The notes: generated from the sequence alone by a model not told the origin. Shown: positions 3,862 to 62,956, counted from the stretch's first letter. The stretch is DNA of 64,000 bases from a virus (IMGVR_UViG_3300037454_001182:1-64000); one strand, 5' to 3'. Program-made: numbers and translations.

Positions 3862-5217
3862 TTATGTGAATTGATAACGTACCTTTCCTTGACCAAAGAA
3901 CTGCGGTGTGATGGTGGTGCCGAAAGGCAGCTTACCACTCTTTCGCAACTCATTGAGCCAGAACTTCTGTTCTGAATCATTTGTGAGATACTTGCACATA
4001 GTACCATCGTCTTTCTGGAACTGCACCACATAACGAGGGCCGTTCTGAGTAGGCACGTCTGGCTCAAAGTCAATGATTGTAATGTGAGTGTTTACGAGTG
4101 CGCGAAGATTCTCTGGATTTCCCTGTAAGATACGCTTTCCATCCTTACCTGTGAAGTTCACGCCCTCTGCTTGCTTTTGTTTCTTTAGTTCTGCAAATGA
4201 ATCCATGTTTTTACCAGTTAATTTCTTGTATAAGTGTTTTGCATCGCACCATTTAGCCATGCCTTTAAGACTGCCGATTATCTCCTGTCTGCGCTTGCGG
4301 CTCTTAATCTTAGCCAACTTACGAGCGGCTTTCTGCTTGGTTCTTTTCCTCAACCTCGCTTTCTTGCCATCGTACACATACCCCAGAAAGTCTATACCCT
4401 CCGAGATAGGCTTCACGCTTTCATTGGGTTTTATCTCCAGACCCACCTCGGCCACCTTTTCATGGATGATGTCGCGGATAATCCACAACTTTTCTTTCGT
4501 TGAGGCCAGTATCACCATATCATCGCAATAGCGGTAGTAATACTTTATACCCAACTCATCCTTGATGTAGTGGTCGAGGAAACTAAGGATGATATTGCCG
4601 TAGCACTGTGACGAGCGCAATCCGATAGACAAGCCCTTTGGCATCATGGTCACGAAATCATGGAGCATTGGCAGTAATATGGGGTCTTTGATGTAACTCT
4701 GTACCACACCCCACATCACATTCTGGTCTATGCTCTCAAAGAACTTGCGAATGTCACACTTGTAAAAGTATGCCGTACCCTCGCGGTCATTCTCGATGTC
4801 GTGTCTCATCTTCGCAAACAGCTTGTGCATGCCCCTACCAGGTATGCTTGCAGCCGATGTACGGATAACACTTGGGTAAATCTTATCTTCAACCACTCGC
4901 ATGATGGCATTGCAACCGATTCTGTCAGTCACACATGGGCTTTGAACGGTTCTCACCTTTGGCCCATCCTTGACTTCCATTTCCCGATAGCCTTTCACCC
5001 TAAACGTGCCATCTGCAATCTCCTTAGTCAGTCTGGCGATTACCTCTTCCCTGTGACTGCGATAGGTGGTGCGTCTGCCGGACAACACCGTTTTCTTTCC
5101 CTTGTGGGTAAAGGTACGCGGATTGTCTGGCAGTTGGTCAACCACCTCATCAAACGCCCTATCCATGTTAGCACGTTCAACAATCTTTGGAATCAGATAA
5201 CCGTATCTCTTTGGCAT
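3862..5217 (-). CDS. DGR reverse transcriptase with a fused C-terminal domain of about 114 aa
   Basis: KCDIRKFF, GLSIGLRSSQ (DGR-type IGxxxSQ), YRYCDD and IDFLGY motifs; adjacent TR/VR pair. Confidence 0.95.
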   Translation of the reverse strand: MPKRYGYLIPKIVERANMDRAFDEVVDQLPDNPRTFTHKGKKTVLSGRRTTYRSHREEVIARLTKEIADGTFRVKGYREMEVKDGPKVRTVQSPCVTDRIGCNAIMRVVEDKIYPSVIRTSAASIPGRGMHKLFAKMRHDIENDREGTAYFYKCDIRKFFESIDQNVMWGVVQSYIKDPILLPMLHDFVTMMPKGLSIGLRSSQCYGNIILSFLDHYIKDELGIKYYYRYCDDMVILASTKEKLWIIRDIIHEKVAEVGLEIKPNESVKPISEGIDFLGYVYDGKKARLRKRTKQKAARKLAKIKSRKRRQEIIGSLKGMAKWCDAKHLYKKLTGKNMDSFAELKKQKQAEGVNFTGKDGKRILQGNPENLRALVNTHITIIDFEPDVPTQNGPRYVVQFQKDDGTMCKYLTNDSEQKFWLNELRKSGKLPFGTTITPQFFGQGKVRYQFT

Positions 5218-5440
5218 GATAAAATAAGTTTCTTCTTCGTTCGTGCGGTCATAGCACTTTCGAGCATAATGCCTACTTGCCCATCATCGACCGCACCCTG
5301 TGATGTTCTGGCTTTCCGTGTTTCCACGCTGTTGCCAAGGTTCCAATCCCTCGCTGACTGTCATTGACTATCCCGTAGTCATTCACCGTAGCAACGATTA
5401 AACTTCCAGTGATTTCTCACCGTGAAGCAGAGTTGATTTA
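5218..5440 (-). other. Structured spacer between TR and RT (part of the DGR template RNA)
   Basis: Non-coding; 8-bp stem gtgcggtc(5243-5250)/gaccgcac(5289-5296); hairpin tgacta-tcccg-tagtca (5365-5381). Confidence 0.6.
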
Positions 5441-5554
5441 GCAGAGGCGACCGCCGTTGTTCGTGTTCGAGTTCGATGAAGCGTTATTCGTGTTCGAATA
5501 AGCGACACCTGCATTCGCATTCGCGTTGTTGTTCGAGCGACCGAGAACGCGGCC
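5441..5554 (-). repeat. DGR template repeat (TR), 114 nt
   Basis: Sense strand has 12 AAY codons and 29 adenines; differs from VR1 only at adenines. Confidence 0.95.
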
Positions 5555-5611: not shown

Positions 5612-5647
5612 GAGGGGATGGATGGCCTTTCGACCACCCACACCCTC
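5612..5647 (-). other. GAAA-loop hairpin between the VR1 gene end and TR
   Basis: GAGGGUGUGGGUGGUC-GAAA-GGCCAUCCAUCCCCUC: 16 stem positions, 1 mismatch, 3 G-U pairs. Confidence 0.65.
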
Positions 5648-5655: not shown

Positions 5656-8600
5656 TTAGTCGCACAACTCGCTCTCGTTCTCGATTTCTCCGAAGAAGCA
5701 GAGGCGACCGCCGCTGAACGTGTACGAGTACGATGAAGCGTTACCCGTGCTCGAATAAGCGACACCCGCATACGCATTCGCGTAGTTGTGCGAGCGACCG
5801 AGAACGCGGCCTTTACCACTATTGGCAGATTGATAGGCCGCATAGCACATCGCATAGGTAGTTTCGTTGGTATAGGCTGATGCCACAATATCACAATATC
5901 TACCGAAGCGGACACGCGCTGCACAGGTGGCTTGGTTGTCACTTGCAGCCTTAACCCTACGCTCTTGACCGTCCTGTTGCAAGATGTTGTAGTAGTAATC
6001 TACCGCCCATGCGGCTTGCTCTACACGTCTGGCTTTCTTGAACGCATCGAATGAGGGCGCATTCATACAACCCTTATCAGTCCACTCATACATTGTAGCA
6101 GTCCACGCTTCAAGACCCCACATCTTATTCATTTCGTTGGTGGCGTAGTATGATGTATCACCAAAGGCGATGCTGTTTCTCACGCCAGTAGTGTAGTCTG
6201 GCGAACTACCACGGCCTACAAGGGTTTCTATGTCACGAGTACCGAACCATGCCATAAGCAGGTTGGCCATATCCTTTGAGGTCTCATAGGGAACGGTGGA
6301 ATAGCCCTCACCACGAATGGATGCAAGGTTGAAGAAATCCTGTGCGGTGCCGTTGATAGATACCGATGGCAGGGCAGTAGGATTACCGTCACTGTCGTAA
6401 CTCCATTCTTTCTGTGTAGATGTACCGTTACCTCTGGAGGTTCTCTTTCCACTGATAGAACGCAAACCGCTCGTTGGTGTACCACCTGTTACGATACCTG
6501 CGGCAAAACCTTGGTAGATACCGATGAGTTCTGACTTATGCTCTACCCAGTCTGGCTCTATGGCCTCGATTTCGGATGAATCAGTCAGAATGACTTGCGG
6601 CAGTTTGGCGGCAGCAGTCTTTCTACAAGCGAAATACAGGTACTTCGCATTGTCGGGAACAGTGAGGAACACATAATCACCCAAATCATTGTCGAAGTCG
6701 GATGGGTTCACGATGCTACCATTCTTCACTACGTCTGTCATGGTGAATGTGAAGAGTTCCACCAGTTTTCCGTTGGCATCAGCAAATGCCGAACAGAAGT
6801 AACTATGCCTCATGCCAGGGAAGCGCACTTGCTTCATTCCGCTGACATCTACCTTATACAGATTGCACTCGGTAGCGGTAGCGAGGATGGATGAATCGTA
6901 GTTATCACCAACAGAGAAATAGCGGTTGTCTATGACCTTACCATCAACCTCCAGAAGATTTGCCAATACCAGTTTTTGCGTGATAGTGGCTGTGCTTACA
7001 GGTGTGGTTGTCCTACTTGACAGGAAGAGGTGCTTTCTGGCATTCTTGAAGTCATTCACGCCCTTGTAGTAATACTTGGGCAGGTAGAGGAACATATCAT
7101 ACATTTCACCGTTGGGGTCGGTAGGATTGAATGCGTCACCGTCTGCGGTCAGATTCAGACTGCTCTTAGAAATCTTCGTACAGTGCATCTTGTGAGACAC
7201 TGGATTGATGATGCCGGAAACAATCTGGCATCTGTCATGGATGGATTTCACATGACCACTGGCGTTATATCCATTGGGATGCGCTCTCTCGTACTCTTCA
7301 CCCTCTACGCGGTGCTGATAGCCTGTCTGGTTGTCAACATTCGTGACGTTGGCAGGGTCAGTTTCCTCATCTTCAAAGACATACTCTGAATACTGTGCCT
7401 CTGTGAGTTCCAGACCGCAACGCTCAAAGAACGCTTGCATTTCTGCGAAATCATCTACCACGTCAATGAGTTGGACGGAACCAATCAGTGCCGGATACGT
7501 CTGTTCTGCGCCTGTTGCTGTCAAGCCCATATATCCAGACATGAACGGACGGAGTACAGAAGAGCGGACGCGGCCACTCATACCCTCAATACGCACATGG
7601 TCGATATTGCTGCACTGCTGCAACAGGACACGCCAATCAAGGTGAGGACACTCTGCGAAGTTCAATGCCCTTACTGCACCTGCATTCTGCAAGGTCAGTC
7701 CGCTATGCGTCAAGTTAGGCAGATAGCGCAAAGTGAGTGTAGTCAGAGTGGATGGCAGAACCAGTGTAGTAGTGGGTGCGCCCTCTGCCAGTTTGACAGT
7801 CGTGAGGCTCGTACCACCTGCCAGAAGTGTAGTCAGTCGCGTATGCTTCGACACGTCAAAGACACCTGCCGTTCCAGTGTGTACGCCTGTCTGCCCTGTG
7901 ATGTCGATATACTGGAGTTTGGATGAATCACCGAGTGTCAGAGGCGCATTTGCTACGCCATTGGTTGCAGGCATCACCAGTTTAGACAGCATCGAGCAAA
8001 GAGAGAGGTTCACCGTACCGTTCAACTGACTGCCCATGTTGGTAAGGTCAAGTTCCTTGATGCAACTTGCACCACCGAGCATGAGGGGGTCATTGGTTGC
8101 CAACCTCTGCGAGAACTGCAACGTCAACTCTTCGTTGAGGTCTGCACGGCTTGGGCCTTGGAGCCAGATACCATTTAACTTGTAGCCAAAGTAGTAGAGG
8201 TCACCACTCTTCAACTTCATGGAAGAGACTGCATCGTTGGCCTCGCGTACCACCGTGAATGTCACAACGTCACCATTGTAAGCACCTGCACCATATCTGG
8301 CATCCAGAAGTCGGGCGCGGTCGGTGAGGAACGCTGTAATATGGGCTTCACGGTTTCCAGTCAGCGTATAGACGTAGTTCATGGTGTCGATAGTATCAAT
8401 GTACTTCAACTTTCCAGATTTGTTATACTGTCTCTCTGACCAGTTGCCAATCATGTTTCCGACAAACTCATCAAGGGCGGCTTGCGTGGTCAGTTGGTTA
8501 CGGAGGTTGGCGGCACACTGCTTCAGCTCATCCTCGAAGTTGGCGAGTACCAGACACCAGAGCCATGAACTGTGACCCTCAAAGGCATATTTAGCACGTT

Positions 8601-11600
8601 CTGAATCGTAGCTGTCGCGTGTGATATTATAGAGGTACACGATAAAGGCATCATTTCGGATAGCCTCCCATGTATCACCATCATAGAATGTAGAATACCA
8701 TTTCAGACCGTCCCACGTTCTCCAGAGGATATTCTTTGCCAACTGGTCTTTACCTGCGAGATAGTCAATGATGAGGTAGTACGTCAACAGGTGGTTGCGG
8801 TCGAAGTAGTTTGAAATCTCAGTCTTGAACTTATTCGACACCCATTTTGCCTTGCTCTCTGCACTCCAACCTGCGGCGGTGCCGTAGTCTGGATTAGAAC
8901 GCATGGCTGATGGTACGCAATCATAAAGCCAACCCATCCAACGCTTGATAGCGGCTCTGGCTCCTGGCAGTGGCTTCACTGACCATTTGTTTTTACCTGC
9001 ATCCCATTGGCCCTCATCGACATTTGCCCACTTGGCATCCTCTGGATAGTTGAACTCGAAGCCATCATCGAATTTGTCTGCAAGTTGGTTGGCCAATGCG
9101 GTGCTGTTCTCTGAACCTGCAGGCTGGAACAACGTCATTGGTGAGTTGTTATCCAGAGCCTCCAGAGCGATAGGACACGGCCAATGGTTGCCCAAAACAG
9201 GCTGCATTACTCCATGCTCATCTTCCTCTTCCTCACCAGTAGGAACGAGAATACCAGTAGCAGGTTCCATGCCGAAGATGGTAGCGGACTTGGATTTCTC
9301 ATTGTTCAACACAAACTGACCGCAATAGGTTAATGCACCTACCTCACTCTTACCTGCGAAGATGTCACATGGCAAACCGTCCACGGACTGCCTTACTCTT
9401 GCATCATATTCCTGTGGGGGTGTCAGCAGGTTCAACGCTCTCATGGTCGTATCAAAGAGGTGTGCGCCACCTGTGTTACCTGCCAATGAGGAATCCACAA
9501 AGTCAGTCTTACAACAGATAACACCCTGCTCGATGGAGTTTGCAGCACCACGGAGAGGATAACCCTTTGCGGTGTCTGTCACGTCCACACCACCGATAAC
9601 CAGTGAGCGTACACCGTCCTGTTCGGTAGTCAGATAGATGCGGATATTCTTGTATGGGTACTTGACGGATGAAGTACCTTGGATTCTCACGCGGACGTTT
9701 CTTGCCTCGAAGCCTTGACCGATGGAGTTTCCGTTGGAATCCAGAGGCGGCTCCCATTTTACGAGGTCGGCCTTGAAGTTCTGCTTTTTGTCAACACAAG
9801 TAAACAGGTCTGTCAAACCCATACCGCTGTCACCACTGCGAATGATGGTCAGAACGCCACGACCCTTTGAACGGAGTGCATCTTTATTGATGGCGATGTT
9901 ACCGTCTGCATCGGCTGTGTTGTTGCTGTCACCTACCGCATTTTTCTGGTGGGCGGCTTGGATGAGTGCTGCCGTAGGTCTGTCAATAATCCAGTTAGCC
10001 AGAACCTCATCGGCTGTCAGAGGTGTACGATAGTAACGGATGCCGCGTACCTGTACGTCTGCCTTGTCTGAATCGAAAGTGAGCAACTGCGGCACGTTCT
10101 GACGGAGTGCGCCAGAGTAACGGTTTGCACGGCTCAACACACCATTGATGAAGAGCATACCGAGGCCGTAACCATTGCTGACAGGCTGAACCACGAAAGC
10201 AAGGTGCATCCATTTGTCGGGGGCGATGTTCATAGCAACACCCTTTGGACGTGTCACTTTCAGACGGACAGCATGGGCAGAATCCACGATGTTGCCCTCA
10301 TAGTCGATATAGTTGCCGTATTCGTCTTTCAAATCCTCAGCGGTGGTAATCTCTTCCACACCACCAAAGAACAGTCCGGCCTCTTCGGTTGTAACCTTGA
10401 TGCCCATCGGATAACCGCTGTTGTCATTATCCCAGAGGCAGCTTACAACGGTTGCGCCACGCTCCATGACCTGCGACACCTTGATTTCCATTTCAAGAGC
10501 CATACCCCTGTTCTGGATGGAGTAGTCATTATCGGTCTCATCCAACACAAACGGCTTGATGTTGGTTTGCTGTACGGCTCCATTGGTCAACAGCATGGAA
10601 TCCACACCGTCTGCGTCTCTGTGCCATCCGTTGGTGTTGAAGTCAACGCCTTGGAACGTGGTAATGCCACCCCAATCTGAACGAGTGACAGCACTCTCAT
10701 TGTTGGTACGACCGTTGGCAGTCAGTTTCGTTCTGTAACCGATAGCCTCCTGTTCTGTCACACCTGCGGCTGCTGTGACCACAACGGCAAAGGTGCGAGT
10801 GGTTGAGCCGACTGTGACGGTCATTGCATGAGTGCCGCTTGTGTCGAAACGCTGTGATAACGTCTGCATGGTGCGGTCTGCTGCAAGGGTCTGGGTGGTG
10901 ACACCATCAACGGCAACGATAACAGTTGCCTCCAGATTTGCCGACTGCCAGGCTGCAAAATCAATGGTCAGTGAGCCGAATTGCTCTGCGGCCAGAGGTA
11001 GTGCAGTGTCACCATAGGCATAGGGTAACGGCATATCCGAAATCTGTGCAACAGGAACGGAAAGACGCATACCGAGGTAGTCTGAGGAACCACCTGCCTT
11101 TAGCAAGTCCACACTCACTACATTACTCAACAGGCCGCTTGATTCAGCAACCAACTGGATATTGTGCCTACCTGCTGAGAGGTCGGACGCATTGAGGTAC
11201 ACGTTACCTCTGGCAGTACCGCTAACGGTGGCCGTGTCAAACAGGGTGCCATCCTTATACACTCTGATAGTCGTACCTGCCGGAACGGTGTAGGTGTAAG
11301 GAATGGTGATGGTCTGGCCGTTTGTGAAACCGTTGGAAAGTGCCAGTGCTGATGCAGGGTCAAAGGTAGTGGCCAAATCCATCGTAATCACGCTAACAGA
11401 CTTGAAGCCCTGCGCCCTCTGTGATTCCTCGCCATAGACGGTCTGAGCGATGATGTAGATGTTCACCGTACCTGCCTGTGTGATAACATCGGGGCCGAGT
11501 GTCAGAACGTCCGTAGTACCTGCCGGAACATTCGGGCGCGTCTCACTGTAAACCTCAGTAGTACCAATCAAGGCGCGGATGGTAAGGGTCTGCGCTGCCG

Positions 11601-12156
11601 TACCAGATGAATGCTGTGTACCCTCTTCCTGTATGATGTGGTCATACGTCCACCTCAGACTGATGGAATCGCCCAACTTCACACGGTTGGCAGTCAGTAA
11701 CTCAGTGGTGATTTTCGCAAAGGTGACAGTACCAATCTCACTTGCAGCAGGGATTCGCACTGAAGCAAAGTCCGTGCCTTGCTCGTTGGTGAAAACGAGG
11801 TCAAGTTGCGTCGTGTCACCCTCCACAGGGTCAGTACGGATGCTGTCAATGGTCTGCCCCTTGATGCTGTTTATCTCAGTGGCTACTGCCCTGTTCTGAA
11901 CGGCATTAGTGCTTTCCGTTGATAGCGACTGGTCAACGGCAGGAATGTCAATATCGACAATGCCGTTGGCATCTTTCTGGACGGTCTGGTTGTTCACTCG
12001 CACACCACTCACCTTATCTTCCGATTCTTGGAGTTTGCGCTTGATGAACTTCTGGACTGATTCACCGCTATACGGTAAATTGTTCCTTGAATCCTGTTCC
12101 CAATCTTCATTGAGAGTACGGATGTCATTGTAACTTAGATTACTTTTTCTTGCCAT
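5656..12156 (-). CDS. Large tail adhesin / receptor-binding protein, DGR target 1
   Basis: 2166 aa; LamG-like, CotH-kinase-like and LRR-like segments; C-terminal VR (GRVLGRS...GGRLC, CLec-type). Confidence 0.8.
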   Translation of the reverse strand: MARKSNLSYNDIRTLNEDWEQDSRNNLPYSGESVQKFIKRKLQESEDKVSGVRVNNQTVQKDANGIVDIDIPAVDQSLSTESTNAVQNRAVATEINSIKGQTIDSIRTDPVEGDTTQLDLVFTNEQGTDFASVRIPAASEIGTVTFAKITTELLTANRVKLGDSISLRWTYDHIIQEEGTQHSSGTAAQTLTIRALIGTTEVYSETRPNVPAGTTDVLTLGPDVITQAGTVNIYIIAQTVYGEESQRAQGFKSVSVITMDLATTFDPASALALSNGFTNGQTITIPYTYTVPAGTTIRVYKDGTLFDTATVSGTARGNVYLNASDLSAGRHNIQLVAESSGLLSNVVSVDLLKAGGSSDYLGMRLSVPVAQISDMPLPYAYGDTALPLAAEQFGSLTIDFAAWQSANLEATVIVAVDGVTTQTLAADRTMQTLSQRFDTSGTHAMTVTVGSTTRTFAVVVTAAAGVTEQEAIGYRTKLTANGRTNNESAVTRSDWGGITTFQGVDFNTNGWHRDADGVDSMLLTNGAVQQTNIKPFVLDETDNDYSIQNRGMALEMEIKVSQVMERGATVVSCLWDNDNSGYPMGIKVTTEEAGLFFGGVEEITTAEDLKDEYGNYIDYEGNIVDSAHAVRLKVTRPKGVAMNIAPDKWMHLAFVVQPVSNGYGLGMLFINGVLSRANRYSGALRQNVPQLLTFDSDKADVQVRGIRYYRTPLTADEVLANWIIDRPTAALIQAAHQKNAVGDSNNTADADGNIAINKDALRSKGRGVLTIIRSGDSGMGLTDLFTCVDKKQNFKADLVKWEPPLDSNGNSIGQGFEARNVRVRIQGTSSVKYPYKNIRIYLTTEQDGVRSLVIGGVDVTDTAKGYPLRGAANSIEQGVICCKTDFVDSSLAGNTGGAHLFDTTMRALNLLTPPQEYDARVRQSVDGLPCDIFAGKSEVGALTYCGQFVLNNEKSKSATIFGMEPATGILVPTGEEEEDEHGVMQPVLGNHWPCPIALEALDNNSPMTLFQPAGSENSTALANQLADKFDDGFEFNYPEDAKWANVDEGQWDAGKNKWSVKPLPGARAAIKRWMGWLYDCVPSAMRSNPDYGTAAGWSAESKAKWVSNKFKTEISNYFDRNHLLTYYLIIDYLAGKDQLAKNILWRTWDGLKWYSTFYDGDTWEAIRNDAFIVYLYNITRDSYDSERAKYAFEGHSSWLWCLVLANFEDELKQCAANLRNQLTTQAALDEFVGNMIGNWSERQYNKSGKLKYIDTIDTMNYVYTLTGNREAHITAFLTDRARLLDARYGAGAYNGDVVTFTVVREANDAVSSMKLKSGDLYYFGYKLNGIWLQGPSRADLNEELTLQFSQRLATNDPLMLGGASCIKELDLTNMGSQLNGTVNLSLCSMLSKLVMPATNGVANAPLTLGDSSKLQYIDITGQTGVHTGTAGVFDVSKHTRLTTLLAGGTSLTTVKLAEGAPTTTLVLPSTLTTLTLRYLPNLTHSGLTLQNAGAVRALNFAECPHLDWRVLLQQCSNIDHVRIEGMSGRVRSSVLRPFMSGYMGLTATGAEQTYPALIGSVQLIDVVDDFAEMQAFFERCGLELTEAQYSEYVFEDEETDPANVTNVDNQTGYQHRVEGEEYERAHPNGYNASGHVKSIHDRCQIVSGIINPVSHKMHCTKISKSSLNLTADGDAFNPTDPNGEMYDMFLYLPKYYYKGVNDFKNARKHLFLSSRTTTPVSTATITQKLVLANLLEVDGKVIDNRYFSVGDNYDSSILATATECNLYKVDVSGMKQVRFPGMRHSYFCSAFADANGKLVELFTFTMTDVVKNGSIVNPSDFDNDLGDYVFLTVPDNAKYLYFACRKTAAAKLPQVILTDSSEIEAIEPDWVEHKSELIGIYQGFAAGIVTGGTPTSGLRSISGKRTSRGNGTSTQKEWSYDSDGNPTALPSVSINGTAQDFFNLASIRGEGYSTVPYETSKDMANLLMAWFGTRDIETLVGRGSSPDYTTGVRNSIAFGDTSYYATNEMNKMWGLEAWTATMYEWTDKGCMNAPSFDAFKKARRVEQAAWAVDYYYNILQQDGQERRVKAASDNQATCAARVRFGRYCDIVASAYTNETTYAMCYAAYQSANSGKGRVLGRSHNYANAYAGVAYSSTGNASSYSYTFSGGRLCFFGEIENESELCD
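5698..5811 (-). repeat. DGR variable region VR1
   Basis: 12 mismatches to TR over 114 nt, all at TR adenines; lies at the 3' end of the 2166-aa gene. Confidence 0.95.
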
Positions 12157-42095: not shown

Positions 42096-42161
42096 TGCTC
42101 TTCGATTTAGATGTATCAAGATAGCCGATAATACGACCATCATAGAAAGAACGAATAGGTC

Positions 42162-43129: not shown

Positions 43130-43149
43130 TGCTCTTATTCTTAATTGAT

Positions 43150-44878: not shown

Positions 44879-44886
44879 TCTTGAAA

Positions 44887-46690: not shown

Positions 46691-46707
46691 TGCTCTTATA
46701 GTTTGAA

Positions 46708-46790
46708 TTTCTATACTGCAAAGATAGCGATTTTTTCTGAATTATCAAAACGGAAAACTCTTTATTTTCGCCTTGCCAACTCTTTTTAAC
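46708..46790 (-). promoter_or_regulatory. Early-type repeated promoter P5
   Basis: -7 box at 46719-46726; upstream box at 46776-46790. Confidence 0.75.
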
Positions 46791-49551: not shown

Positions 49552-49558
49552 ATACTAA

Positions 49559-50095
49559 CTATTGAAAGAAATCATCAAAGAGGCCCAACTGTCGCGGCTT
49601 CAACGCCTCGAACTCTTCTCTGAAGAACTGGTCTTTGGTGCGCCCCATCATCTTACCCTTGCGAGTGTGAACATCGTAGGTGTATTCTGGAATGGGAATC
49701 GGGTACCGTCTGGCATCTTCGAGCCATGCGTCCACATTCTCCAGTCGGTTCTGGTCATAGACAAGATTCTGCAAGTGGTCTGCATCACGGCTTTTGCGAC
49801 ACTCACACAGGAGCAGAACGGCCTTACTGACGAACACCCTGCCTTTCGGCACAGGTTGTTTCTTGTTTACTAACTCATGGCCCTGCCATAACGCCTCAAT
49901 CTCTTGGGTGATGAGGCCGTAGCAGTCTTCCGCGCTTATCGTGTATAGTCTCTTCCAGACATAATCACGGTAGCCTGAATGCCATAATTCCAGGGCGAAA
50001 TACCCTGCTGTTCGTGCGTCTGCTCTACGAATGGCCTTTTGCATGGCTGATGATACTTCGTAGAAATCGTAACCTTTAACTGTTCTTAATTCCAT
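49559..50095 (-). CDS. MgsA/RarA C-terminal-like protein without the AAA domain
   Basis: SAMQKAIRRAD...WKRLYTISAEDC; AAGAGCA-ATG start. Confidence 0.7.
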   Translation of the reverse strand: MELRTVKGYDFYEVSSAMQKAIRRADARTAGYFALELWHSGYRDYVWKRLYTISAEDCYGLITQEIEALWQGHELVNKKQPVPKGRVFVSKAVLLLCECRKSRDADHLQNLVYDQNRLENVDAWLEDARRYPIPIPEYTYDVHTRKGKMMGRTKDQFFREEFEALKPRQLGLFDDFFQ

Positions 50096-50190
50096 TGCTC
50101 TTACTTTTGGTTTTGTTATTCTTGTTTTCTAACAGTAAAGTTAGTCATTTTTAGCGAGATATGCAAATTTTCAAACTTCTTTTTCATCGT

Positions 50191-50952
50191 TCAAAACCTA
50201 AAATTTGTTATGATGTTGTATTGTACTTTGTTGATGGTCTTTTCAGAACCATTCGACCCTTGCCCTTTCAGTTGGATGGCTTCACCGAACATCTTACGCA
50301 TGAAGAGGATGCTACGCCTTTCCTCATCATGGTTACGAATCTCGGACAAACCACCTGCATTGACAAAGGTGTCTTTCTGGACGAACGTATAACGCTCATC
50401 TGTCAGTATGCGCCTTTCCTTGAACTTCATATAACAGGAAATCCAGAAATCTTCTTTCAACTTCAACTCTTCATTCCACCAGACGTTTTCATTGAAGCGG
50501 ACACCATACGAGCAACCTGTAATCTGTCTGGTGAATGAGAGGTAACACTGCTCATCATACTGTACTGGTGTCTTTCGGTTGGTGTAACCCCAACAGTGAA
50601 CATCAAGCATTTCTGCCAGTTCGTGCAACTCTTCGACTATGCGCTGCACCTCATTGGGGTCTTTGATATTGCACTTCTCGCCTTTCTCATTGTAGAGTTT
50701 CTTGAACTGAAAGACATCATCATCGACCATGAACAAATCTCCGAAATGCCGTGCCATCCAGTTACGCTTCGGGATAAGCCCTACTACATCGTCTGGATGG
50801 GTCACAATCTCACACTCTGGATTGAAACGCCTATACTGTTCCGCTTGGCTTTCGGCCACGCAGATAATGGGCGAGGGGAACAGCTTCTTTGCTACCACTC
50901 TATCCCACCGCTTATGACTGGGTATGACTATCTTCAAGGGCATGGCGCACAT
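50191..50952 (-). CDS. GT-A fold glycosyltransferase (TAGT/GREB1-like)
   Basis: IVIPSHKR, FMVDDD and KEDFWIS motifs; ParB neighbour. Confidence 0.65.
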   Translation of the reverse strand: MCAMPLKIVIPSHKRWDRVVAKKLFPSPIICVAESQAEQYRRFNPECEIVTHPDDVVGLIPKRNWMARHFGDLFMVDDDVFQFKKLYNEKGEKCNIKDPNEVQRIVEELHELAEMLDVHCWGYTNRKTPVQYDEQCYLSFTRQITGCSYGVRFNENVWWNEELKLKEDFWISCYMKFKERRILTDERYTFVQKDTFVNAGGLSEIRNHDEERRSILFMRKMFGEAIQLKGQGSNGSEKTINKVQYNIITNFRF

Positions 50953-55709: not shown

Positions 55710-56120
55710 TTATGCTGCTTTCAGATACTTGCGGATTTCCCAGAGCATCGTACTCATGCGCTTGTAGAGGTAGTAGTTAGCACGGCTATTGTACTCTTTC
55801 AGTTTCAGCCCGGCTTCCTCAATGGTCTGTTCCTCTCTCTGGGTGAGTGCGGTGTGAACCAGTGTACGCTCTTTCCAGTCGAAGTCTTTCCAACCGTACT
55901 TCTCGATGATGTGCCAAAGTTTCTCGCGCATCTTCTCTTGCTTCTCTCTGGCCTTGGCTTGTTCTTTGGCTTCCTTTACCCTGGAATGATTCATCTTGAC
56001 CCAGAGAGCGCAAAACTCATCTTTGCAAAGGTCGCTGTTCATGTAAACAACTTCGATGTGAGAATACTCTTCTGGGGTAACTCTCATTCCTACTCTCGTT
56101 TCAAATTCTGACTGTATCAT
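55710..56120 (-). CDS. Hypothetical protein
   Basis: 136 aa; AAGAGCA-ATG start; first gene after P6. Confidence 0.65.
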   Translation of the reverse strand: MIQSEFETRVGMRVTPEEYSHIEVVYMNSDLCKDEFCALWVKMNHSRVKEAKEQAKAREKQEKMREKLWHIIEKYGWKDFDWKERTLVHTALTQREEQTIEEAGLKLKEYNSRANYYLYKRMSTMLWEIRKYLKAA

Positions 56121-56155
56121 TGCTCTTTGATTTTAATTGTTATTATTTCATCTTT

Positions 56156-56234
56156 TGTACTACAAAGATAGCGTTTTTTTCTGAAATATCAAAACCGAAT
56201 AGCAATTATTTTCAGCCGACCAACTCTTTTTAAC
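56156..56234 (-). promoter_or_regulatory. Early-type repeated promoter P6
   Basis: -7 box at 56163-56170; upstream box at 56220-56234. Confidence 0.75.
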
Positions 56235-58404: not shown

Positions 58405-59060
58405 TTATCACCTCCTTTCAGAAAGATAACATTCTTACCGTCCTTTCGATTCTCCTTATAGCAGAAACCACTAAACTTGCAATCATCATCCTCTGCAAGA
58501 AAGGCGCAACCGCTACAATCTTCACCGTCTGTCTTTTCCACGCAAAGAAGATGCTCACCTTTGAACTCCACAACATCGCCAATAGCGACATCGCGCTTTT
58601 GCTCTGGTTCTGGTTCTGGCTTCGGATTCATCAACTCTCTCAAATCTATCTTATCCAGTTTGGCGCATAGTTCCTTGGCATATTCGATAGACAGGTTGGT
58701 AATGAAATCGACACAACCATCTTCATTCAAATCTTTGATGTTCTTTGTACGCATGAGTGACTGCATCGCCATTCCAGAGAATACGCAAAGGTGGCTTTCG
58801 TATGCCCTTACCTTTTCCCTTTCCTCAAAATCTGAGACTTCCTCAAAATCCCATGCGAGATTAAGCCCCTTGACCATTTCATGCTCATCCAGATTAGCGT
58901 CAATGTAACTGACCCAATCCGTCTTTCTTCTTTTATCACTTTCTCCGTTGTGACTTACGACATAGACAATTTCACCAGTCTTTCGATTCTTGGCCTTGCC
59001 TCTTCCTAATATAAACATAATTGATTCGATTAAAATAAACGTGAACGAATACGATTCCAA
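58401..59060 (-). CDS. Hypothetical protein with a C-terminal Cys cluster (likely start 59018)
   Basis: CSGCAF...C...C. Confidence 0.55.
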   Translation of the reverse strand: MESYSFTFILIESIMFILGRGKAKNRKTGEIVYVVSHNGESDKRRKTDWVSYIDANLDEHEMVKGLNLAWDFEEVSDFEEREKVRAYESHLCVFSGMAMQSLMRTKNIKDLNEDGCVDFITNLSIEYAKELCAKLDKIDLRELMNPKPEPEPEQKRDVAIGDVVEFKGEHLLCVEKTDGEDCSGCAFLAEDDDCKFSGFCYKENRKDGKNVIFLKGGDK

Positions 59061-59479
59061 TAACTTTTCTTTGAGTAGTTCCTACGCTTATTGTAGGCAT
59101 GGAGTTTTGAACGGTATGGTGGCACTGGTGGCTCTGGAGCCTCAACCAGAGGAATGAAATCAATCAATGGCGGTTCTGGCAGCTTAGTCAAAACATACAC
59201 TTGGTTTTCCATTTCTGCCACCTCGATAGCATCGTATGTCTCAGTATCAATCTGAACACAGACATCAACAGTCTGCAATTCGGTGTCTGGGGCTATCCTC
59301 TGGGCGTGTGCCTCTAATTTGGTCTCAATCTCAGAGGGTGACAGCTTGCCATCGTTCACGTCATAGATGAACTTGCACAGGCTCTTATAGCCCTCACCGA
59401 CACACTTACGGCCTCTCAGTGGATTGTAGGCATATACCTTACCAATCTGGAGTTTGATATTGAAAGTCAACTCTGCCAT
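59030..59479 (-). CDS. Hypothetical protein
   Basis: 149 aa, tightly packed. Confidence 0.55.
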   Translation of the reverse strand: MAELTFNIKLQIGKVYAYNPLRGRKCVGEGYKSLCKFIYDVNDGKLSPSEIETKLEAHAQRIAPDTELQTVDVCVQIDTETYDAIEVAEMENQVYVLTKLPEPPLIDFIPLVEAPEPPVPPYRSKLHAYNKRRNYSKKSYWNRIRSRLF

Positions 59480-60051
59480 TATACCAGTTCAAATGAATAG
59501 GCGTACACTAACGGATTATCAATCCAAGTATTGCGACCACACACCTTATTGATGAGGTGATGGAACGCCTCTCTGGGAGTACCCCAACACTCTTCACAGT
59601 TCGGATAGGTGTAGTAGTCACCATCTTCAACATCGTAGCCCTTGATGATACCCTCGGCCAGACAATCCTCATCCGAAATATCCTGCAGACATTCCACCTT
59701 GATTCCAGTAATGCGGATTGAGTGAGGCATCAACTCGGCTTTGACATACATCTTATTTGTCACTCCGATGTGATTCTCTTCGACCAGACGAATGACCTCA
59801 TTTTCCAATCTGGGTGGCAGGTACTCCGCTTCCAGAATGTCCTTATACCTCTGACCGATGGCCACGACCTCACCGACCTTGAAAGGCGAATGTGCAAGCA
59901 TGTACTCATCACGCTTGGCGATGTCACCACCTGCATAGGTCATGGCATCAACAACAAGCCTGTTTGGAATTGACCTGCGCGTATTCCATTTGTCTTTCTT
60001 CAGCACGGCTTGATGAAGTCCCTGCTCTTCGGAAAACATTATCTTTCTCAT
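59479..60051 (-). CDS. ASCH/PUA-like phage protein
   Basis: KWNTRR, PFKVGEVV, IRITGIKVECLQDISDEDCLAEG and WIDNPLVYAYSF. Confidence 0.65.
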   Translation of the reverse strand: MRKIMFSEEQGLHQAVLKKDKWNTRRSIPNRLVVDAMTYAGGDIAKRDEYMLAHSPFKVGEVVAIGQRYKDILEAEYLPPRLENEVIRLVEENHIGVTNKMYVKAELMPHSIRITGIKVECLQDISDEDCLAEGIIKGYDVEDGDYYTYPNCEECWGTPREAFHHLINKVCGRNTWIDNPLVYAYSFELV

Positions 60052-60326
60052 ACCTCCTTGATTTCAAACAGGTGGAACACCAACATTCCGTTACGCATCT
60101 GGATAGTTCCGATGTAGTTCAACTTTCTGGCTTCATCAGTAGAAATGTCATGGCCAGTTCCGGCCAATCTGAACTTTCTCACCTCTGCCTTGTTATCTGG
60201 ATTCACCAAAGCCCAGATACACGGCATACCATTCTGAACCTGCACCGTCAGAATCTCAGCATTTTGCGGTAAGGTGACAGACTGGTAATCTGTCACCTCG
60301 ATAGGATATTTGAACACTTTCATCAT
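60048..60326 (-). CDS. Hypothetical phage protein
   Basis: 92 aa; YIGTIQM...VFHLFE. Confidence 0.6.
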   Translation of the reverse strand: MMKVFKYPIEVTDYQSVTLPQNAEILTVQVQNGMPCIWALVNPDNKAEVRKFRLAGTGHDISTDEARKLNYIGTIQMRNGMLVFHLFEIKEV

Positions 60327-60337
60327 TGCCTTGCCTC

Positions 60338-60922
60338 CTACTCGCAGAAAATGAAGTCCATATATTCAGCAAGGAACTGTTGGCCCGCGTACTCCGCTAA
60401 CGCTCTATTTTTGAAGCAGAGGCGACCGCCGCCGTACGTGCTCGAGAACGACGAAGCGTTACTCGTGAGCGACAAAGCGACACCCGCATTCGCACTCGCG
60501 CTGTTGTACGAGCGACCGAGAACGCGGATTCCCTTTTTGTCCTCTTCATCCATACCGTCCAGTTCCTCCTGTGTGTAGAACACGAACCAAGGGAAATAGC
60601 GGTATTCATCCTCAGTAAAATTCGGCTTCCATCCCTCATTGAGAGCTTCAACAATAGTCTTTAGTTTGATGTAGGCCACCTCATCCTTTTCGAGAAAACA
60701 ACGGCTGTTGTCAATCGGTGAAGAATAGCGCAGGTCGTGGAAGTTTACAGGCTGAATACCGAGGACTTTGCAAGCATCCTCATACGTCTTTACCCTCTCT
60801 GTGATAGGCAGCAGGGAATCCAGACCATCAACCTGTACGTCATGCTTACGCATGAGTTCCATCATTTCTTTTGCAAACACTTGTGCCTTATCATCTGGCA
60901 CGATCAGTTTTAACTCTTTCAT
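60338..60922 (-). CDS. Small early-region protein, DGR target 2
   Basis: 194 aa; contains VR2 (RVLGRSYNSASANAGVALSLTSNASSFSSTYGGGRLC) near the C-terminus. Confidence 0.85.
   Translation of the reverse strand: MKELKLIVPDDKAQVFAKEMMELMRKHDVQVDGLDSLLPITERVKTYEDACKVLGIQPVNFHDLRYSSPIDNSRCFLEKDEVAYIKLKTIVEALNEGWKPNFTEDEYRYFPWFVFYTQEELDGMDEEDKKGIRVLGRSYNSASANAGVALSLTSNASSFSSTYGGGRLCFKNRALAEYAGQQFLAEYMDFIFCE
60416..60527 (-). repeat. DGR variable region VR2
   Basis: 16 mismatches to TR over 112 nt, 15 of them at TR adenines. Confidence 0.92.
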
Positions 60923-60969
60923 TGCTCTATGAGTATTTAATATACGCAGGGCGGTTACTCCTGCAAATC

Positions 60970-61221
60970 CTATAAATCAATATCAAAGCCCATATCAGAC
61001 AGGGCAAGGATAACGGCTACTGGCAATTCATAGATACCATCGTAATCTATCACAGTGTTGCCATCAGTGACATAGTTTCCACAAACGTAGGTATCATCGT
61101 CATTGTCTTTCTCCCATTCCCAACTGTGGGAACTCGGAGTGATTGCTACCCACACATCATCATCATCAAAATAGAAGTGATGGATGCCGTCATTATCAAC
61201 GTTTCTTCTGGTGATATTCAT
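60970..61221 (-). CDS. Acidic hypothetical protein
   Basis: 83 aa; AAGAGCA-ATG start. Confidence 0.6.
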   Translation of the reverse strand: MNITRRNVDNDGIHHFYFDDDDVWVAITPSSHSWEWEKDNDDDTYVCGNYVTDGNTVIDYDGIYELPVAVILALSDMGFDIDL

Positions 61222-61233
61222 TGCTCTTATATT

Positions 61234-61467
61234 TTATAGTTCTACTGGTATGGATTTGCCTGTTAACCTTTCAAGTGCGACTAAGACATTCCATCCCAAA
61301 TTTGTCTGTATTTGCTGCATCTTTTCGTGATGCTCCATTGCCTTATTACGGTAGGTTTCACTCTCTTGCCTTTTGGCAAAGTAGTAGTTGAAACTCTTAA
61401 CGTGGTCGATGTATTCATCAAGAACTTCTTGATTTACATTTACTGTCACAATTACTGGAAAACTCAT
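61234..61467 (-). CDS. Hypothetical protein
   Basis: 77 aa; AAGAGCA-ATG start. Confidence 0.6.
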   Translation of the reverse strand: MSFPVIVTVNVNQEVLDEYIDHVKSFNYYFAKRQESETYRNKAMEHHEKMQQIQTNLGWNVLVALERLTGKSIPVEL

Positions 61468-61479
61468 TGCTCTTTGGTT

Positions 61480-61863
61480 TTATTGGTTTACTTTCTCGAA
61501 TGATATTTGGCCATCCTCTTGCGCTCGATTCAAGATACCCAGTACGTAGTTGTTCACGTTCTCTTCATCACCGACCTCTCTTGCAGTTCTGAGGAACAGC
61601 GTTTCGTTCATGTAACGCTCTCTCATCTTACCCTGCCAGTCTGTGAAGATTCCAGTGATACGGATTCTGGTAACTTTCTTCTGCATAAGGCTCTTGGCTC
61701 TTGTCTTTACCCATGCAAGGCTGTAAGACGTATAGACATTGGTAGGGGATTTCATGGAACCGCTACCGTGCATCTTTGAATAATCCCACAGGTTGTAGAA
61801 CTGTCTGCCTGTGCTGTCTTTTTCCTCAGTATAGGAAAAGCGGTCATTGATTTTGTGCTCCAT
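61480..61863 (-). CDS. Hypothetical protein
   Basis: 127 aa. Confidence 0.55.
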   Translation of the reverse strand: MEHKINDRFSYTEEKDSTGRQFYNLWDYSKMHGSGSMKSPTNVYTSYSLAWVKTRAKSLMQKKVTRIRITGIFTDWQGKMRERYMNETLFLRTAREVGDEENVNNYVLGILNRAQEDGQISFEKVNQ

Positions 61864-61875
61864 AACTCAAACCGT

Positions 61876-62268
61876 TTATTGTTCATTCATTCTTGCTTGC
61901 CCATACTCTCTACTCCATTGCTTTGTGACTTTCTCGCGGTCAATTCCAGTGAGTGCCTGGCTGAAACGCTCAGTGATGAAAGCACCGTAAAGAATGGTAT
62001 TCTTATTCAACTTCATGCCGTTAGGGCAAAGACCGTTGGCATATCTACCATATTGCATATAGATGTTACGGTCAGCAGATGGAATGTAGTTTACTCTCTG
62101 ACCATCCTTTTTCATTGCCACTTCCCAATGGGAGCCGGTATAGGTCTTACTGCTCATCCAGTTATCTTGCGTATAACTGTCAGATTCAGATACGAGCCTT
62201 GCGACAATCTCATAATGTCCGCAATCGCTCTGCAAGTAGATGTACCTTGTTTTGATATTCGATTTCAT
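61876..62268 (-). CDS. Hypothetical protein
   Basis: 130 aa; AAGAGCA-ATG start; first gene after P7. Confidence 0.6.
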   Translation of the reverse strand: MKSNIKTRYIYLQSDCGHYEIVARLVSESDSYTQDNWMSSKTYTGSHWEVAMKKDGQRVNYIPSADRNIYMQYGRYANGLCPNGMKLNKNTILYGAFITERFSQALTGIDREKVTKQWSREYGQARMNEQ

Positions 62269-62285
62269 TGCTCTTATAGTTTGAA

Positions 62286-62368
62286 TTTCTATACTGCAAA
62301 GATAGCGATTTTTTCTGAATTATCAAAACGGAATGACTATTATTTTTGCCTTGCCAACTCTTTTTAAC
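62286..62368 (-). promoter_or_regulatory. Early-type repeated promoter P7
   Basis: -7 box at 62297-62304; upstream box at 62354-62368. Confidence 0.75.
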
Positions 62369-62956
62369 TCAATACTTTTTGCCGTGCCTCAAAGGTCTGG
62401 TTTCATTGTACTTCATCTTGGCCTCGATGTGAAAATCAAGGTCAATGCCTAACTGCTTTGCCCACTCATAGACGAACTCAATGGATTCAGACAGGTTGGC
62501 CATTCCAGAGTTGAGGACACCACGAACAAGGTAGTCGGCTGCTTCAGTGAATGACCATCTTTCAAACACTCGCACCCTGTATGTTTCCCAGTGCATTTCC
62601 TCACCGAACTTCTCATAGGCGAAATCCAGAATACGGATGAAGATGTCGGCAAACTCTTCATCCACGCTACCCTTGATGTACTCATTGAAATAGACCGAGT
62701 ACCAATTTTGATACCACTGTTCCGTTAGCCCTATCTCACCCTCTTTCTGTATTCTCAACGTCTCTTTCATTGCTTGGGTGTTGGCACGTTGGTTTTTCCT
62801 GTCAGCCTCAACAGCTTCAGCGACCTCGGTCATTATCATGCACAGCCAATGGCTATCAGATTTCTTTTCGTCATGCCATCCGTGGGCACAGGCATTCTTG
62901 TGTATCTGTCTGGCCCACGTCTGTAACTTTTCTTGATTCAGTCTCATATCAATCAC
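62369..62956 (-). CDS. MazG-like nucleotide pyrophosphohydrolase
   Basis: TEVAEAVEADR...EEFADIFIRILD...KMKYNETRPLRHGKKY. Confidence 0.75.
   Translation of the reverse strand: MIDMRLNQEKLQTWARQIHKNACAHGWHDEKKSDSHWLCMIMTEVAEAVEADRKNQRANTQAMKETLRIQKEGEIGLTEQWYQNWYSVYFNEYIKGSVDEEFADIFIRILDFAYEKFGEEMHWETYRVRVFERWSFTEAADYLVRGVLNSGMANLSESIEFVYEWAKQLGIDLDFHIEAKMKYNETRPLRHGKKY

What the first reader, a model, noticed from the sequence alone, without database searches (positions are those of the whole stretch)
60338..60922. Second DGR target about 55 kb from the RT/TR, in a small non-structural gene
Seen: 60416-60527 aligns without gaps to TR 5441-5552 with 16 mismatches, 15 at TR adenines. The exception is codon TAT to TTG. 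Its substitution pattern mostly differs from VR1, which points to independent mutagenesis. The 194-aa host gene has no signal peptide or tail features, lies among early genes, starts with the AGAGCA-ATG tag, and continues about 25 codons past the VR. I found no hairpin after VR2 like the one after VR1. Established: DGRs can have several or remote targets, but characterised phage targets are mostly receptor-binding proteins. Inference: one template diversifies both a virion adhesin and an intracellular ligand-binding protein, for example an anti-defence or host-takeover factor.
Basis: partly seen in the sequence, partly recalled or inferred. Interest (0 to 1): 0.8.

Follow-up and report, generated by a model that had tools for sequence, protein, structure and literature searches.

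The report
Remote second DGR target, small protein

Summary
VR2 (60416-60527, minus strand) aligns without gaps to TR (5441-5552) with 16 mismatches. Fifteen are at TR adenines (P about 2e-8), and VR2 is in the same frame as VR1.

The 194-aa host gene (60338-60922) belongs to a large family of about 190-aa phage proteins (phrog_11581; 2,964 clusters at 50% identity). Across the family, variation sits at the codons that carry adenines in the TR: 2.72 bits there, against 0.46 bits at other VR codons. The closest relative (93% identical) differs at 14 residues, 11 of them in those codons. VR2 is therefore an active target.

The idea is not new. Benler et al. 2021 described a dual-target DGR in Quimbyvirus whose second target lies among non-structural genes. 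I show that gp58 of the Quimby-like phage PV4-TP1 is a homolog of this protein and carries a VR with 15 of 15 mismatches at adenines.

New here:
- This phage has an unrelated backbone and a Hankyphage-like RT.
- A sister provirus has a different DGR, yet its VR2 matches its own TR.
- Environmental Bacteroidota phages carry compact cassettes with 2-3 tandem copies of this gene, then a TR and an RT.

The function is unknown and no known fold was found. The scan had also noted this stretch in another window (e1-5871044).

The parts
3862..5217 (-). DGR reverse transcriptase, 451 aa, a single ORF
   Evidence: Pfam RVT_1, E=1.6e-13. 44% identical over its full length to the Hankyphage (Bacteroides phage p00) DGR RT.
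5218..5440 (-). Non-coding spacer between TR and RT, presumably the 3' part of the TR RNA
   Evidence: No ORF other than a spurious 75-aa frame over the TR. The role is inferred from the BPP-1 model and was not tested.
5441..5552 (-). Template repeat (TR), 112 nt with 29 adenines and 12 AAC/AAT codons
   Evidence: It is the copy that carries A at every mismatch with VR1 and at 15 of 16 mismatches with VR2.
5698..5809 (-). VR1, near the C-terminus of the 2166-aa tail-module protein
   Evidence: 12 mismatches to the TR, all at TR adenines.
5656..12156 (-). Target gene 1, 2166 aa, at the end of the tail module
   Evidence: phrog_14959, E=0. It lies downstream of the 1866-aa and 2432-aa ORFs and of the MCP and portal genes.
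5612..5647 (-). Imperfect GC-rich hairpin with a GAAA loop, about 65 nt after VR1, at the stop codon of target 1
   Evidence: The DNA fold of 5612-5712 has z=-2.03.
60416..60527 (-). VR2, codons 133-169 of the 194-aa gene
   Evidence: 16 mismatches to the TR, 15 at adenines, in the same frame as VR1. Both VRs continue with TTC where the TR has TAA, so they share the same 3' boundary.
60338..60922 (-). Target gene 2: 194 aa, acidic (pI 4.9), soluble; member of phrog_11581
   Evidence: phrog_11581, E=1e-45. 1,563 homologs and 2,964 clusters at 50% identity. No Pfam, NCBIfam or PADLOC hit. Maximum Kyte-Doolittle hydropathy is 0.56.
60920..60928 (+). Shared start-codon tag (AGAGCAATG on the minus strand) over the ATG of target gene 2
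   Evidence: CATTGCTCT occurs 22 times in the window against about 1 expected, and one copy lies here.
60272..60298 (.). Perfect 10-bp inverted repeat with a 7-nt loop, 117 nt downstream of VR2, inside the DUF7352 gene
   Evidence: No equivalent was found after VR2 of G001; downstream of the VR in L055 I read by eye an imperfect GC-rich inverted repeat just after the stop codon (sequence printed). Its role is unknown.
60048..60326 (-). Downstream neighbour gene, DUF7352, 92 aa
   Evidence: Pfam PF24043, E=1.5e-27.

Best explanation
VR2 is an active, remote (trans) target of the phage's single DGR.

Mechanism. The RT (3862-5217) copies the TR RNA (5441-5552) into cDNA that is randomised at adenines. 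This cDNA replaces VR1 in the 2166-aa tail protein. It also independently replaces VR2 in the 194-aa gene, because both VRs share the TR's 5' homology and the GC-rich 3' boundary (GGCGGTCGCCTCTGC).

Product. The protein is a 22-kDa acidic soluble protein. It has a conserved, mostly helical framework (residues about 36-132 and 165-194) that presents a 15-position hypervariable segment. About 8e15 variants are possible.

Family. It belongs to a large family of Bacteroidota phage proteins that serve as DGR variable proteins. In environmental phages they are the adjacent, tandem targets of compact cassettes. In gut phages such as Quimby-like phages and this one, they are remote second targets of tail-associated DGRs.

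Inferred, not shown. The protein is not a virion part and acts inside the infected or lysogenic cell as a diversified binder in phage-host or phage-phage conflict.
For: Shown:
- A-specific mismatches, P=1.9e-8.
- Same frame as VR1 and AAY codons in the TR.
- VR1 and VR2 mutated independently.
- A DGR-type RT is present.
- Family entropy is 2.72 bits at the 15 A-codons, 0.46 bits at the 22 other VR codons and 1.0 bits outside the VR.
- Sets of 31 and 21 proteins with near-identical frameworks (about 2 differences) differ at about 11.5 of the 15 A-codons.
- P0002, 93% identical, differs at 14 residues, 11 of them in A-codons and none in other VR codons.
- The sister provirus G001 (MCP 69%, integrase 77% identical) has a different RT (26% identical) and a different TR, yet its VR2 matches its own TR: 13 mismatches, 11 at A.
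- PV4-TP1 gp58 has a VR2 with 15 of 15 mismatches at A.
- In G002 and G004, VR2 matches the 3' 67 nt of the TR.
- Compact cassettes with 2-3 tandem targets, then TR and RT, occur in L046 and L049-L054.

For a non-structural role:
- The neighbours are methyltransferases, a ParB-like nuclease and a pyrophosphatase here.
- In relatives the neighbours are NinB, a replisome organiser, HU, an SbcC-like protein, an MBL hydrolase, RtcB and methyltransferases.
- No signal peptide or transmembrane segment.
- The gene carries the start tag shared by accessory genes.
Against: - One non-adenine change (T>G) in VR2, and two in G001's VR2, against none in either VR1. This suggests VR2 is rewritten less often, or that point mutations follow homing.
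- No hairpin lies close behind VR2.
- No Avd accessory gene was recognised by Pfam near the RT.
- There is no expression, localisation or binding data. The non-virion, conflict-related role rests only on gene position and the absence of export signals.
- Some genes with the shared start tag lie inside the head module, so the tag does not prove early expression.
- The VR segment is unmodelled (pLDDT below 50), so the architecture of the binding surface is unknown.
Confidence: 0.7

Rival explanations
1. The small protein is a virion-associated accessory adhesin. It would be a second receptor-binding module that docks onto the tail or capsid although it is encoded outside the structural module, so both DGR targets would serve host recognition.
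For: It shares its whole variable segment with the tail protein (71% identity over 38 aa). Weak PHROG hits to tail families cover the VR (phrog_5302, E=0.009; phrog_14959, E=0.0075). The Versailles homolog is annotated 'tail protein'. Phage DGRs with two structural targets are known (PMC10743442).
Against: The tail-family hits cover only the VR segment, and the Versailles label is an HHpred-to-PHROG transfer. In four unrelated backbones the gene lies among replication, recombination and DNA-modification genes. In Quimby-like phages it is on the opposite strand from the structural genes. No recognisable tail-attachment domain was found.
Confidence: 0.15
2. VR2 is a relic: a former target, or a copy made by recombination with VR1, that the DGR no longer rewrites.
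For: There is one non-adenine substitution, no nearby hairpin, and a 55-kb distance.
Against: VR1 and VR2 differ only at TR-adenine positions plus that one T>G. The nearest relative P0002 has 11 of 15 A-codons changed with only 3 framework changes. VR2 follows the resident TR even after the DGR was exchanged in G001. The reading frame is intact, and non-A VR codons are more conserved than the rest of the protein.
Confidence: 0.05
3. The protein works for the lysogen, not for the lytic phage. It would be a prophage-expressed hypervariable sensor or exclusion factor that recognises proteins of superinfecting phages, like the DGR-diversified putative antigen sensors of multicellular bacteria.
For: The phage is temperate: it has an integrase at 1-1242 and the protein occurs on a 288-kb contig. 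DGR-diversified conflict sensors are a published concept (PMC10907252, listed). The protein is small and soluble, with a single variable surface.
Against: There is no effector or NTPase domain, and the longer family members carry no recognisable fusion domain. PADLOC finds nothing in the protein or its neighbours. The gene lies in the same orientation as the lytic genes and shares their start tag. Family members also occur in crAss-like phages, which as far as I know are not typical temperate phages.
Confidence: 0.2

Closest known systems
Second DGR target of Quimbyvirus ('Quimbyviridae'; Benler et al. 2021, Microbiome 9:78, PMC8008677)
   Same: One TR serves a tail-module target and a second, distant target among methyltransferase, nuclease and other non-structural genes of a temperate Bacteroides-group phage. 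The second target is a homologous protein of about 194 aa: PV4-TP1 gp58 and LoVEphage QVQ57199 are 38-40% identical to it.
   Different: The phage backbone is unrelated: the TerL-like protein, portal and MCP find no match in PV4-TP1 or LoVEphage. The RT is a single ORF of the Hankyphage type, not split over three frames. Target 2 is on the same strand as the structural genes. The VR sequence type is different. That PV4-TP1 and LoVEphage are Quimbyvirus-like is inferred from the published description, because the Quimbyvirus sequence itself was not available here.
Hankyphage (Bacteroides phage p00, BK010646) DGR
   Same: It has the closest annotated RT (44% identity, full length) and the same local layout, with a DUF4376 gene after the RT and a large tail-module target. 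About 2000-aa targets are described for such phages in PMC12694917.
   Different: No p00 record was among the 13 phage records that matched the 194-aa protein, and only a single target is reported for it. The present phage adds a remote second target.
BPP-1 Mtd DGR (the mechanistic paradigm)
   Same: Adenine-specific TR-to-VR transfer, AAY codons, VR at the C-terminal end of the target, and a GC-rich 3' boundary where VR and TR diverge.
   Different: BPP-1 has one adjacent target with a hairpin directly behind the VR. Here the second target is 55 kb away, has no close hairpin, and is not a tail fibre. A C-type lectin fold could not be confirmed.
Two-target phage DGRs with tentaclins (PMC10743442)
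   Same: One TR serves two different proteins. VR2 can be shorter than VR1, as in G002 and G004.
   Different: In those phages both targets are adjacent structural or receptor-binding proteins inside the cassette.

Membership tests
DGR target (variable repeat) | The VR is near-identical to a TR, with mismatches essentially only at TR adenines | tested here: met
   15 of 16 mismatches at A, P=1.9e-8.
DGR target (variable repeat) | A DGR-type reverse transcriptase is encoded in the same genome next to the TR | tested here: met
   RVT_1, E=1.6e-13. 44% identical to the Hankyphage DGR RT. The TR lies 223 nt upstream of it.
DGR target (variable repeat) | The VR is in frame near the 3' end of an ORF, and the TR adenines fall in codon positions 1 and 2 (AAY) | tested here: met
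   Codons 133-169 of 194. There are 12 AAC/AAT codons plus TAT and two ACG codons.
DGR target (variable repeat) | A 3' boundary element (IMH-like) is shared by the VRs and differs from the TR just beyond it | tested here: met
   Both VRs read GGCGGTCGCCTCTGCTTC where the TR reads ...CTGCTAA. The same pattern is seen in G001. Function was not tested.
DGR target (variable repeat) | A hairpin or cruciform closely downstream of the VR (BPP-1 type) | tested here: not met
   No significant fold within 100 nt (z=+0.78). There is only a 10-bp inverted repeat 117 nt downstream, with no equivalent after VR2 of G001. As far as I know this feature is not universal among DGRs.
DGR target (variable repeat) | Ongoing adenine-site diversification in populations | tested here: met
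   Shown at the protein level across metagenomes. Read-level variation within one population cannot be tested with these tools.
DGR target (variable repeat) | Accessory protein (Avd or equivalent) | tested here: inconclusive
   No Pfam match in the small ORFs around the RT. A DUF4376 protein follows the RT, as in Hankyphage-type cassettes.
phrog_11581 / small second DGR target of Quimby-like phages | Full-length sequence homology to the family | tested here: met
   phrog_11581, E=1e-45, covering residues 18-192. tblastn to LoVEphage, BI-TP1 and PV4-TP1 gives 38-40% identity over 78% of the query.
phrog_11581 / small second DGR target of Quimby-like phages | Family members carry a VR that matches a TR in their own genome | tested here: met
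   Seen in PV4-TP1 gp58, G001, G002 and G004, and L046 and L049-L054.
C-type lectin fold DGR variable protein (Mtd / TvpA type) | A CLec fold that presents the VR | tested here: inconclusive
   The model has pLDDT 81, but VR residues 134-160 are below 50. There was no PDB match (Foldseek E above 2; VIA-align best Z 3.7). No Pfam CLec family matched any of 143 members. Benler et al. report CLec domains for the Quimbyvirus targets.
Phage tail / virion protein | Homology to a structural family beyond the VR, or location in the structural module | tested here: not met
   Only weak PHROG hits, confined to the VR. The gene lies about 19 kb beyond the portal gene, among DNA-metabolism genes.

The most novel reading that the evidence does not exclude
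The roughly 190-aa family (phrog_11581) is a dedicated, non-virion 'phage antibody' scaffold, possibly with a fold other than the C-type lectin. Unrelated DGR lineages repeatedly recruit it: compact cassettes with tandem targets, Quimby-type RTs and Hankyphage-type RTs. Its variable segment is re-matched to whichever TR is resident after a DGR is exchanged. This implies strong selection for an intracellular, hypervariable binder used against variable host defence proteins or competing phages.
Probability: 0.3. Interest if true: 0.75.

Novelty: new member of a known kind. Interest (0 to 1): 0.45.

Why it matters
Nearly all characterised phage DGR targets are receptor-binding tail proteins. A hypervariable soluble protein encoded among replication and DNA-modification genes would mean that phages also use targeted hypermutation for something other than adsorption.

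The largest metagenomic DGR survey states that its approach could not detect remote targets (PMC8144416), so this class is probably under-counted.

This case, together with the comparisons made here, turns a single published example (Quimbyvirus) into a family-level pattern:
- the same small protein is targeted in several unrelated phage backbones;
- a related phage with a different DGR still has a VR2 that matches its own TR;
- some phages carry compact cassettes in which the targets next to the RT are 2-3 tandem copies of this gene.

Cultured relatives exist (PV4-TP1, BI-TP1), so the function can be tested.

Tried and rejected
- DNA search of 59000-62500 against the phage collection found no match.
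- Pfam, NCBIfam and PADLOC gave nothing for the 194-aa protein or most of its neighbours.
- A Pfam scan of all 143 members of A3, and of ten longer members with N-terminal extensions, found no shared family, no CLec family and no informative fusion. One member hit Tad2-like at E=0.0011, which I treat as noise.
- A profile search against PDB sequences gave only a spurious FabG hit, E=0.019.
- The first AlphaFold model, from 118 close homologs, was poor (pLDDT 66.6). The second, from 143 diverse homologs, reached pLDDT 81.4 but left the VR unmodelled.
- Foldseek against the PDB (both models) and VIA-align wide gave no credible match. BFVD returned only uncharacterised phage proteins, seemingly family members. 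The ESM Atlas returned only hypothetical viral clusters.
I therefore could not fetch the DNA of the closest relatives (P0002, P0003) for a nucleotide-level count of adenine sites. The metagenome and genome scans returned only one fairly close DNA relative, L055 at 80% identity, whose TR has diverged.
- VR2 as a recombination copy of VR1 was rejected: the two differ only at TR-adenine positions plus one T>G, and their mutated positions overlap at chance level.
- Membership of this phage in the Quimby/LoVEphage lineage was rejected: there is no TerL-like, portal or MCP similarity.

Full report
**Observation**

On the minus strand, the 112-nt segment 60527-60416 aligns without gaps to the template repeat 5552-5441 with 16 mismatches. 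Fifteen fall on TR adenines. The exception is a T>G next to an A>T, which turns TAT into TTG. The TR has 29 adenines in 112 bases, so the probability of at least 15 of 16 at A is 1.9e-8.

A scan of the whole window finds only three copies at 65% identity or more: TR, VR1 (5698-5809; 12 mismatches, all at A) and VR2. Both VRs are in the same codon phase. The TR encodes 12 AAC/AAT codons plus TAT and two ACG codons. The sets of mutated adenines in VR1 and VR2 overlap as chance predicts (7 shared, 6.2 expected, P=0.41). VR2 is therefore not a copy of VR1.

Both VRs continue with TTC after the shared GGCGGTCGCCTCTGC, where the TR has TAA. This is the kind of 3' boundary expected at a homing site. 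The RT is the 451-aa ORF 3862-5217 (Pfam RVT_1). It is 44% identical along its whole length to the Hankyphage DGR RT.

- The gene is 194 aa and has 25 codons after the VR.
- Its ATG sits in the CATTGCTCT tag, which occurs 22 times in the window against about 1 expected.
- There is no significant hairpin within 100 nt of VR2, whereas VR1 has one about 65 nt downstream.
- One thing was missed: a perfect 10-bp inverted repeat 117 nt downstream of VR2, inside the next gene.

**Genome context**

The window is the first 64 kb of a 79,203-bp virus record. An integrase lies at 1-1242 on the plus strand. Most other genes (90 of 110 greedy ORF calls, including all those named here) are on the minus strand.
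- The structural genes are the portal (40302-41765), head morphogenesis gene (37029-38750), MCP (31450-33033) and three giant tail-module ORFs. The last of these carries VR1.
- An amidase lies at 1880-2467.
- Upstream of the portal come DNA methyltransferase, ParB-like nuclease, glycosyltransferase-like and pyrophosphatase genes, plus many small ORFs.

The VR2 gene sits in this second block, between an unassigned 83-aa ORF and a DUF7352 gene. The protein is acidic (pI 4.9) and has no hydrophobic stretch or signal peptide.

**Is VR2 active?**

The protein matches phrog_11581 (unknown function) over its full length at E=1e-45. It has 1,563 homologs of about 195 aa in the 90%-identity clustered database, and 2,964 clusters at 50% identity at E up to 1e-3.

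In an alignment of 118 homologs, variation concentrates on the codons that carry adenine at position 1 or 2 in the TR:

| Columns | Number | Mean entropy (bits) |
|---|---|---|
| VR codons with A at position 1 or 2 | 15 | 2.72 |
| Other VR codons | 22 | 0.46 |
| Outside the VR | 156 | 1.0 |

Two sets of 31 and 21 proteins have almost identical frameworks (about 2 differences) but differ at about 11.5 of the 15 A-codons. The closest relative of the window's protein, P0002 (93% identical), differs at 14 residues. Eleven are in A-codons, none are in other VR codons, and 3 are outside the VR. This is population-level evidence of recent diversification in this lineage. Read-level data could not be obtained.

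**Comparative evidence**

- **G001.** This 72-kb provirus belongs to the same phage lineage (integrase 77%, TerL-like 77%, MCP 69%, portal 69% identical). It carries a different DGR: the RT is only 26% identical, it has no homolog of the 2166-aa target, and its TR is of another sequence type. Its homolog of the small protein (59% identical) nevertheless has a VR that matches G001's own TR 44 kb away, with 13 mismatches, 11 at A. The second target therefore follows whichever DGR is resident.
- **G002 and G004.** In this third lineage, the homolog's VR matches only the 3' 67 nt of the TR, with 11-13 mismatches at A.
- **Environmental Bacteroidota MAG contigs.** These include Pedobacter, Ferruginibacter, Chitinophagaceae and Sphingobacteriaceae. 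The family gene occurs there as two or three tandem copies, each with its own VR. In most of these loci an RT follows directly after the TR. In L051, for example, the VRs are at 2837-2912, 3213-3288 and 3600-3676, the TR is at 3786-3861 and the RT at 3965-4924. In these elements the targets next to the RT are copies of the small protein; the 3-kb flanks fetched do not exclude further targets.
- **Neighbours in relatives.** They are replication, recombination and DNA-modification genes: NinB and a replisome organiser in phage Versailles; methyltransferases, PAPS reductase, radical SAM and RtcB in LoVEphage and PV4-TP1; MBL hydrolase, HU, an SbcC-like protein and a primosomal-like protein elsewhere.

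**What is already known**

Benler et al. 2021 (PMC8008677) described "Quimbyviridae", temperate Bacteroides-group phages of about 75 kb. The Quimbyvirus DGR has an RT in three overlapping frames. [quoted passage not shown] The authors suggested a role in phage-host conflict.

The isolated phage PV4-TP1 (72 kb) fits that description: its RT is split into three ORFs, and its small target lies on the opposite strand near methyltransferases and RtcB. I found its TR at 22771-22878 and an inverted VR2 at 38544-38650, inside the 194-aa gp58, with 15 mismatches, all at TR adenines. gp58 and its LoVEphage counterpart are 38-40% identical to the window's protein. The window's second target is therefore a homolog of the second target seen in a Quimby-like phage. 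That PV4-TP1 is Quimbyvirus-like is my inference from the paper's description.

The present phage is not a Quimby-like phage. Its TerL-like protein, portal and MCP find nothing in PV4-TP1 or LoVEphage. Roux et al. 2021 state that their survey could not detect remote targets. A 2025 study of cultured Bacteroidaceae phages reports only the roughly 2000-aa targets.

**Fold and function**

- With 143 diverse homologs, AlphaFold gives pLDDT 81.4 and pTM 0.75. The framework is mostly helical and confidently modelled, including the 25-residue C-terminal helix after the VR. VR residues 134-160 are below pLDDT 50.
- Neither Foldseek nor VIA-align finds a solved structure (best Z 3.7). BFVD returns only uncharacterised phage proteins. 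No Pfam family, including the CLec-type families, matches any member.
- The C-type lectin assignment that Benler et al. report for the Quimbyvirus targets could therefore be neither confirmed nor excluded here.
- In the VR, variable positions alternate with small residues (x-A-x-A-x-A-G-V-A-x-S-x-T). I read this as strands that present one variable face. That is an inference.
- The TR allows about 8e15 protein variants.
- PADLOC finds no defence-system match in the protein or its neighbours.

**Verdict**

VR2 is a genuine remote DGR target, and population-level evidence indicates it is active. It lies in a small soluble protein encoded among non-structural genes. The mechanism is trans-acting mutagenic retrohoming from the single TR. 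This is well supported by sequence and by population comparison, but it was not observed directly.

The non-virion location and a role in conflict are inferences from gene position in four lineages. The specific anti-defence or host-takeover idea is untested.

The phenomenon has a published precedent in a homologous protein, so I rate it a new member of a known kind. Three points appear to be new:
- recruitment by a Hankyphage-type DGR in an unrelated backbone;
- a VR2 that follows the resident DGR in a sister phage;
- compact cassettes with tandem copies of this gene as the adjacent targets.

Noticed in passing
window 60272-60298: A perfect 10-bp inverted repeat (AGGTGACAGA / TCTGTCACCT on the minus strand, 7-nt loop) lies inside the 5' part of the DUF7352 gene, 117 nt downstream of VR2. 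About 1e-3 such repeats are expected by chance in 250 nt. No equivalent was found after VR2 of G001.
   Followed up: partly
window 35988-36054, 36672-36734, 43148-43231, 44807-44880, 46689-46790, 56155-56234, 62267-62370: A family of 50-100-bp intergenic direct repeats, 80-95% identical, lies upstream of small accessory genes. They probably hold shared promoter or leader elements linked to the AAGAGCAATG start tag.
   Followed up: no
window, 22 sites from 12698 to 62274: CATTGCTCT (AGAGCAATG on the minus strand) occurs 22 times against about 1 expected. By my comparison with the ORF ends, many copies sit on start codons of small non-tail genes. Two copies are on the opposite strand (34316, 46834), where earlier notes place candidate antisense RNAs.
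   Followed up: partly
G001 (IMG/VR UViG 2623620512_000004; loci L026-L029): This is a sister provirus with syntenic head, terminase and integrase genes but an exchanged DGR module. The RT is 26% identical, the TR (11246-11354) is of a different type, and the tail target is different. Both of its VRs (11533-11641 and 55735-55842) match the new TR.
   Followed up: yes
L046, L049, L050, L051, L052, L054 (Bacteroidota MAG contigs): Compact DGR cassettes hold 2-3 tandem paralogs of the small target gene, each with its own VR, followed by a TR; an RVT_1 reverse transcriptase of about 340 aa lies directly downstream in a homology group found at 7 loci (Pfam-checked on L054). Example in L051: VRs at 2837-2912, 3213-3288 and 3600-3676, TR at 3786-3861, RT at 3965-4924.
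   Followed up: partly
G003 (loci L030-L033): 2281-3303 and 48990-50285: One 65-kb viral contig carries two DGR reverse transcriptases with separate TR/VR pairs (3457-3509/4002-4054 and 50492-50562/51095-51165), plus a homolog of the small target at 42013-42384. I did not show that this homolog matches either TR.
   Followed up: partly
window 37029-38750: The head-morphogenesis (MuF-like) protein also matches the PHROG of the Bxa ADP-ribosyltransferase (phrog_16625, E=1.7e-64). This suggests a MuF protein fused to an effector domain.
   Followed up: no
G002 19478-19576 / 35557-35655; G003 21372-21470 / 37451-37549; G004 12111-12223 / 28192-28304: Exact or near-exact direct repeats of 99-113 bp lie about 16.08 kb apart in three related viral contigs. 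They may mark the borders of a mobile or invertible segment.
   Followed up: no
NC_055892.1 (crAss-like cr109_1) 1871-2278 and four other Crassvirales records: Crassvirales phages encode shorter hypothetical proteins (135 aa in cr109_1) homologous to residues 45-148 of the family framework, so at most the first part of the VR is covered. Non-diversified relatives of the scaffold may exist.
   Followed up: partly
window 2471-3849: No Avd-like accessory gene was recognised near the RT. The ORF directly after the RT (3346-3849) has a weak DUF4376 match, as in Hankyphage-type cassettes.
   Followed up: partly
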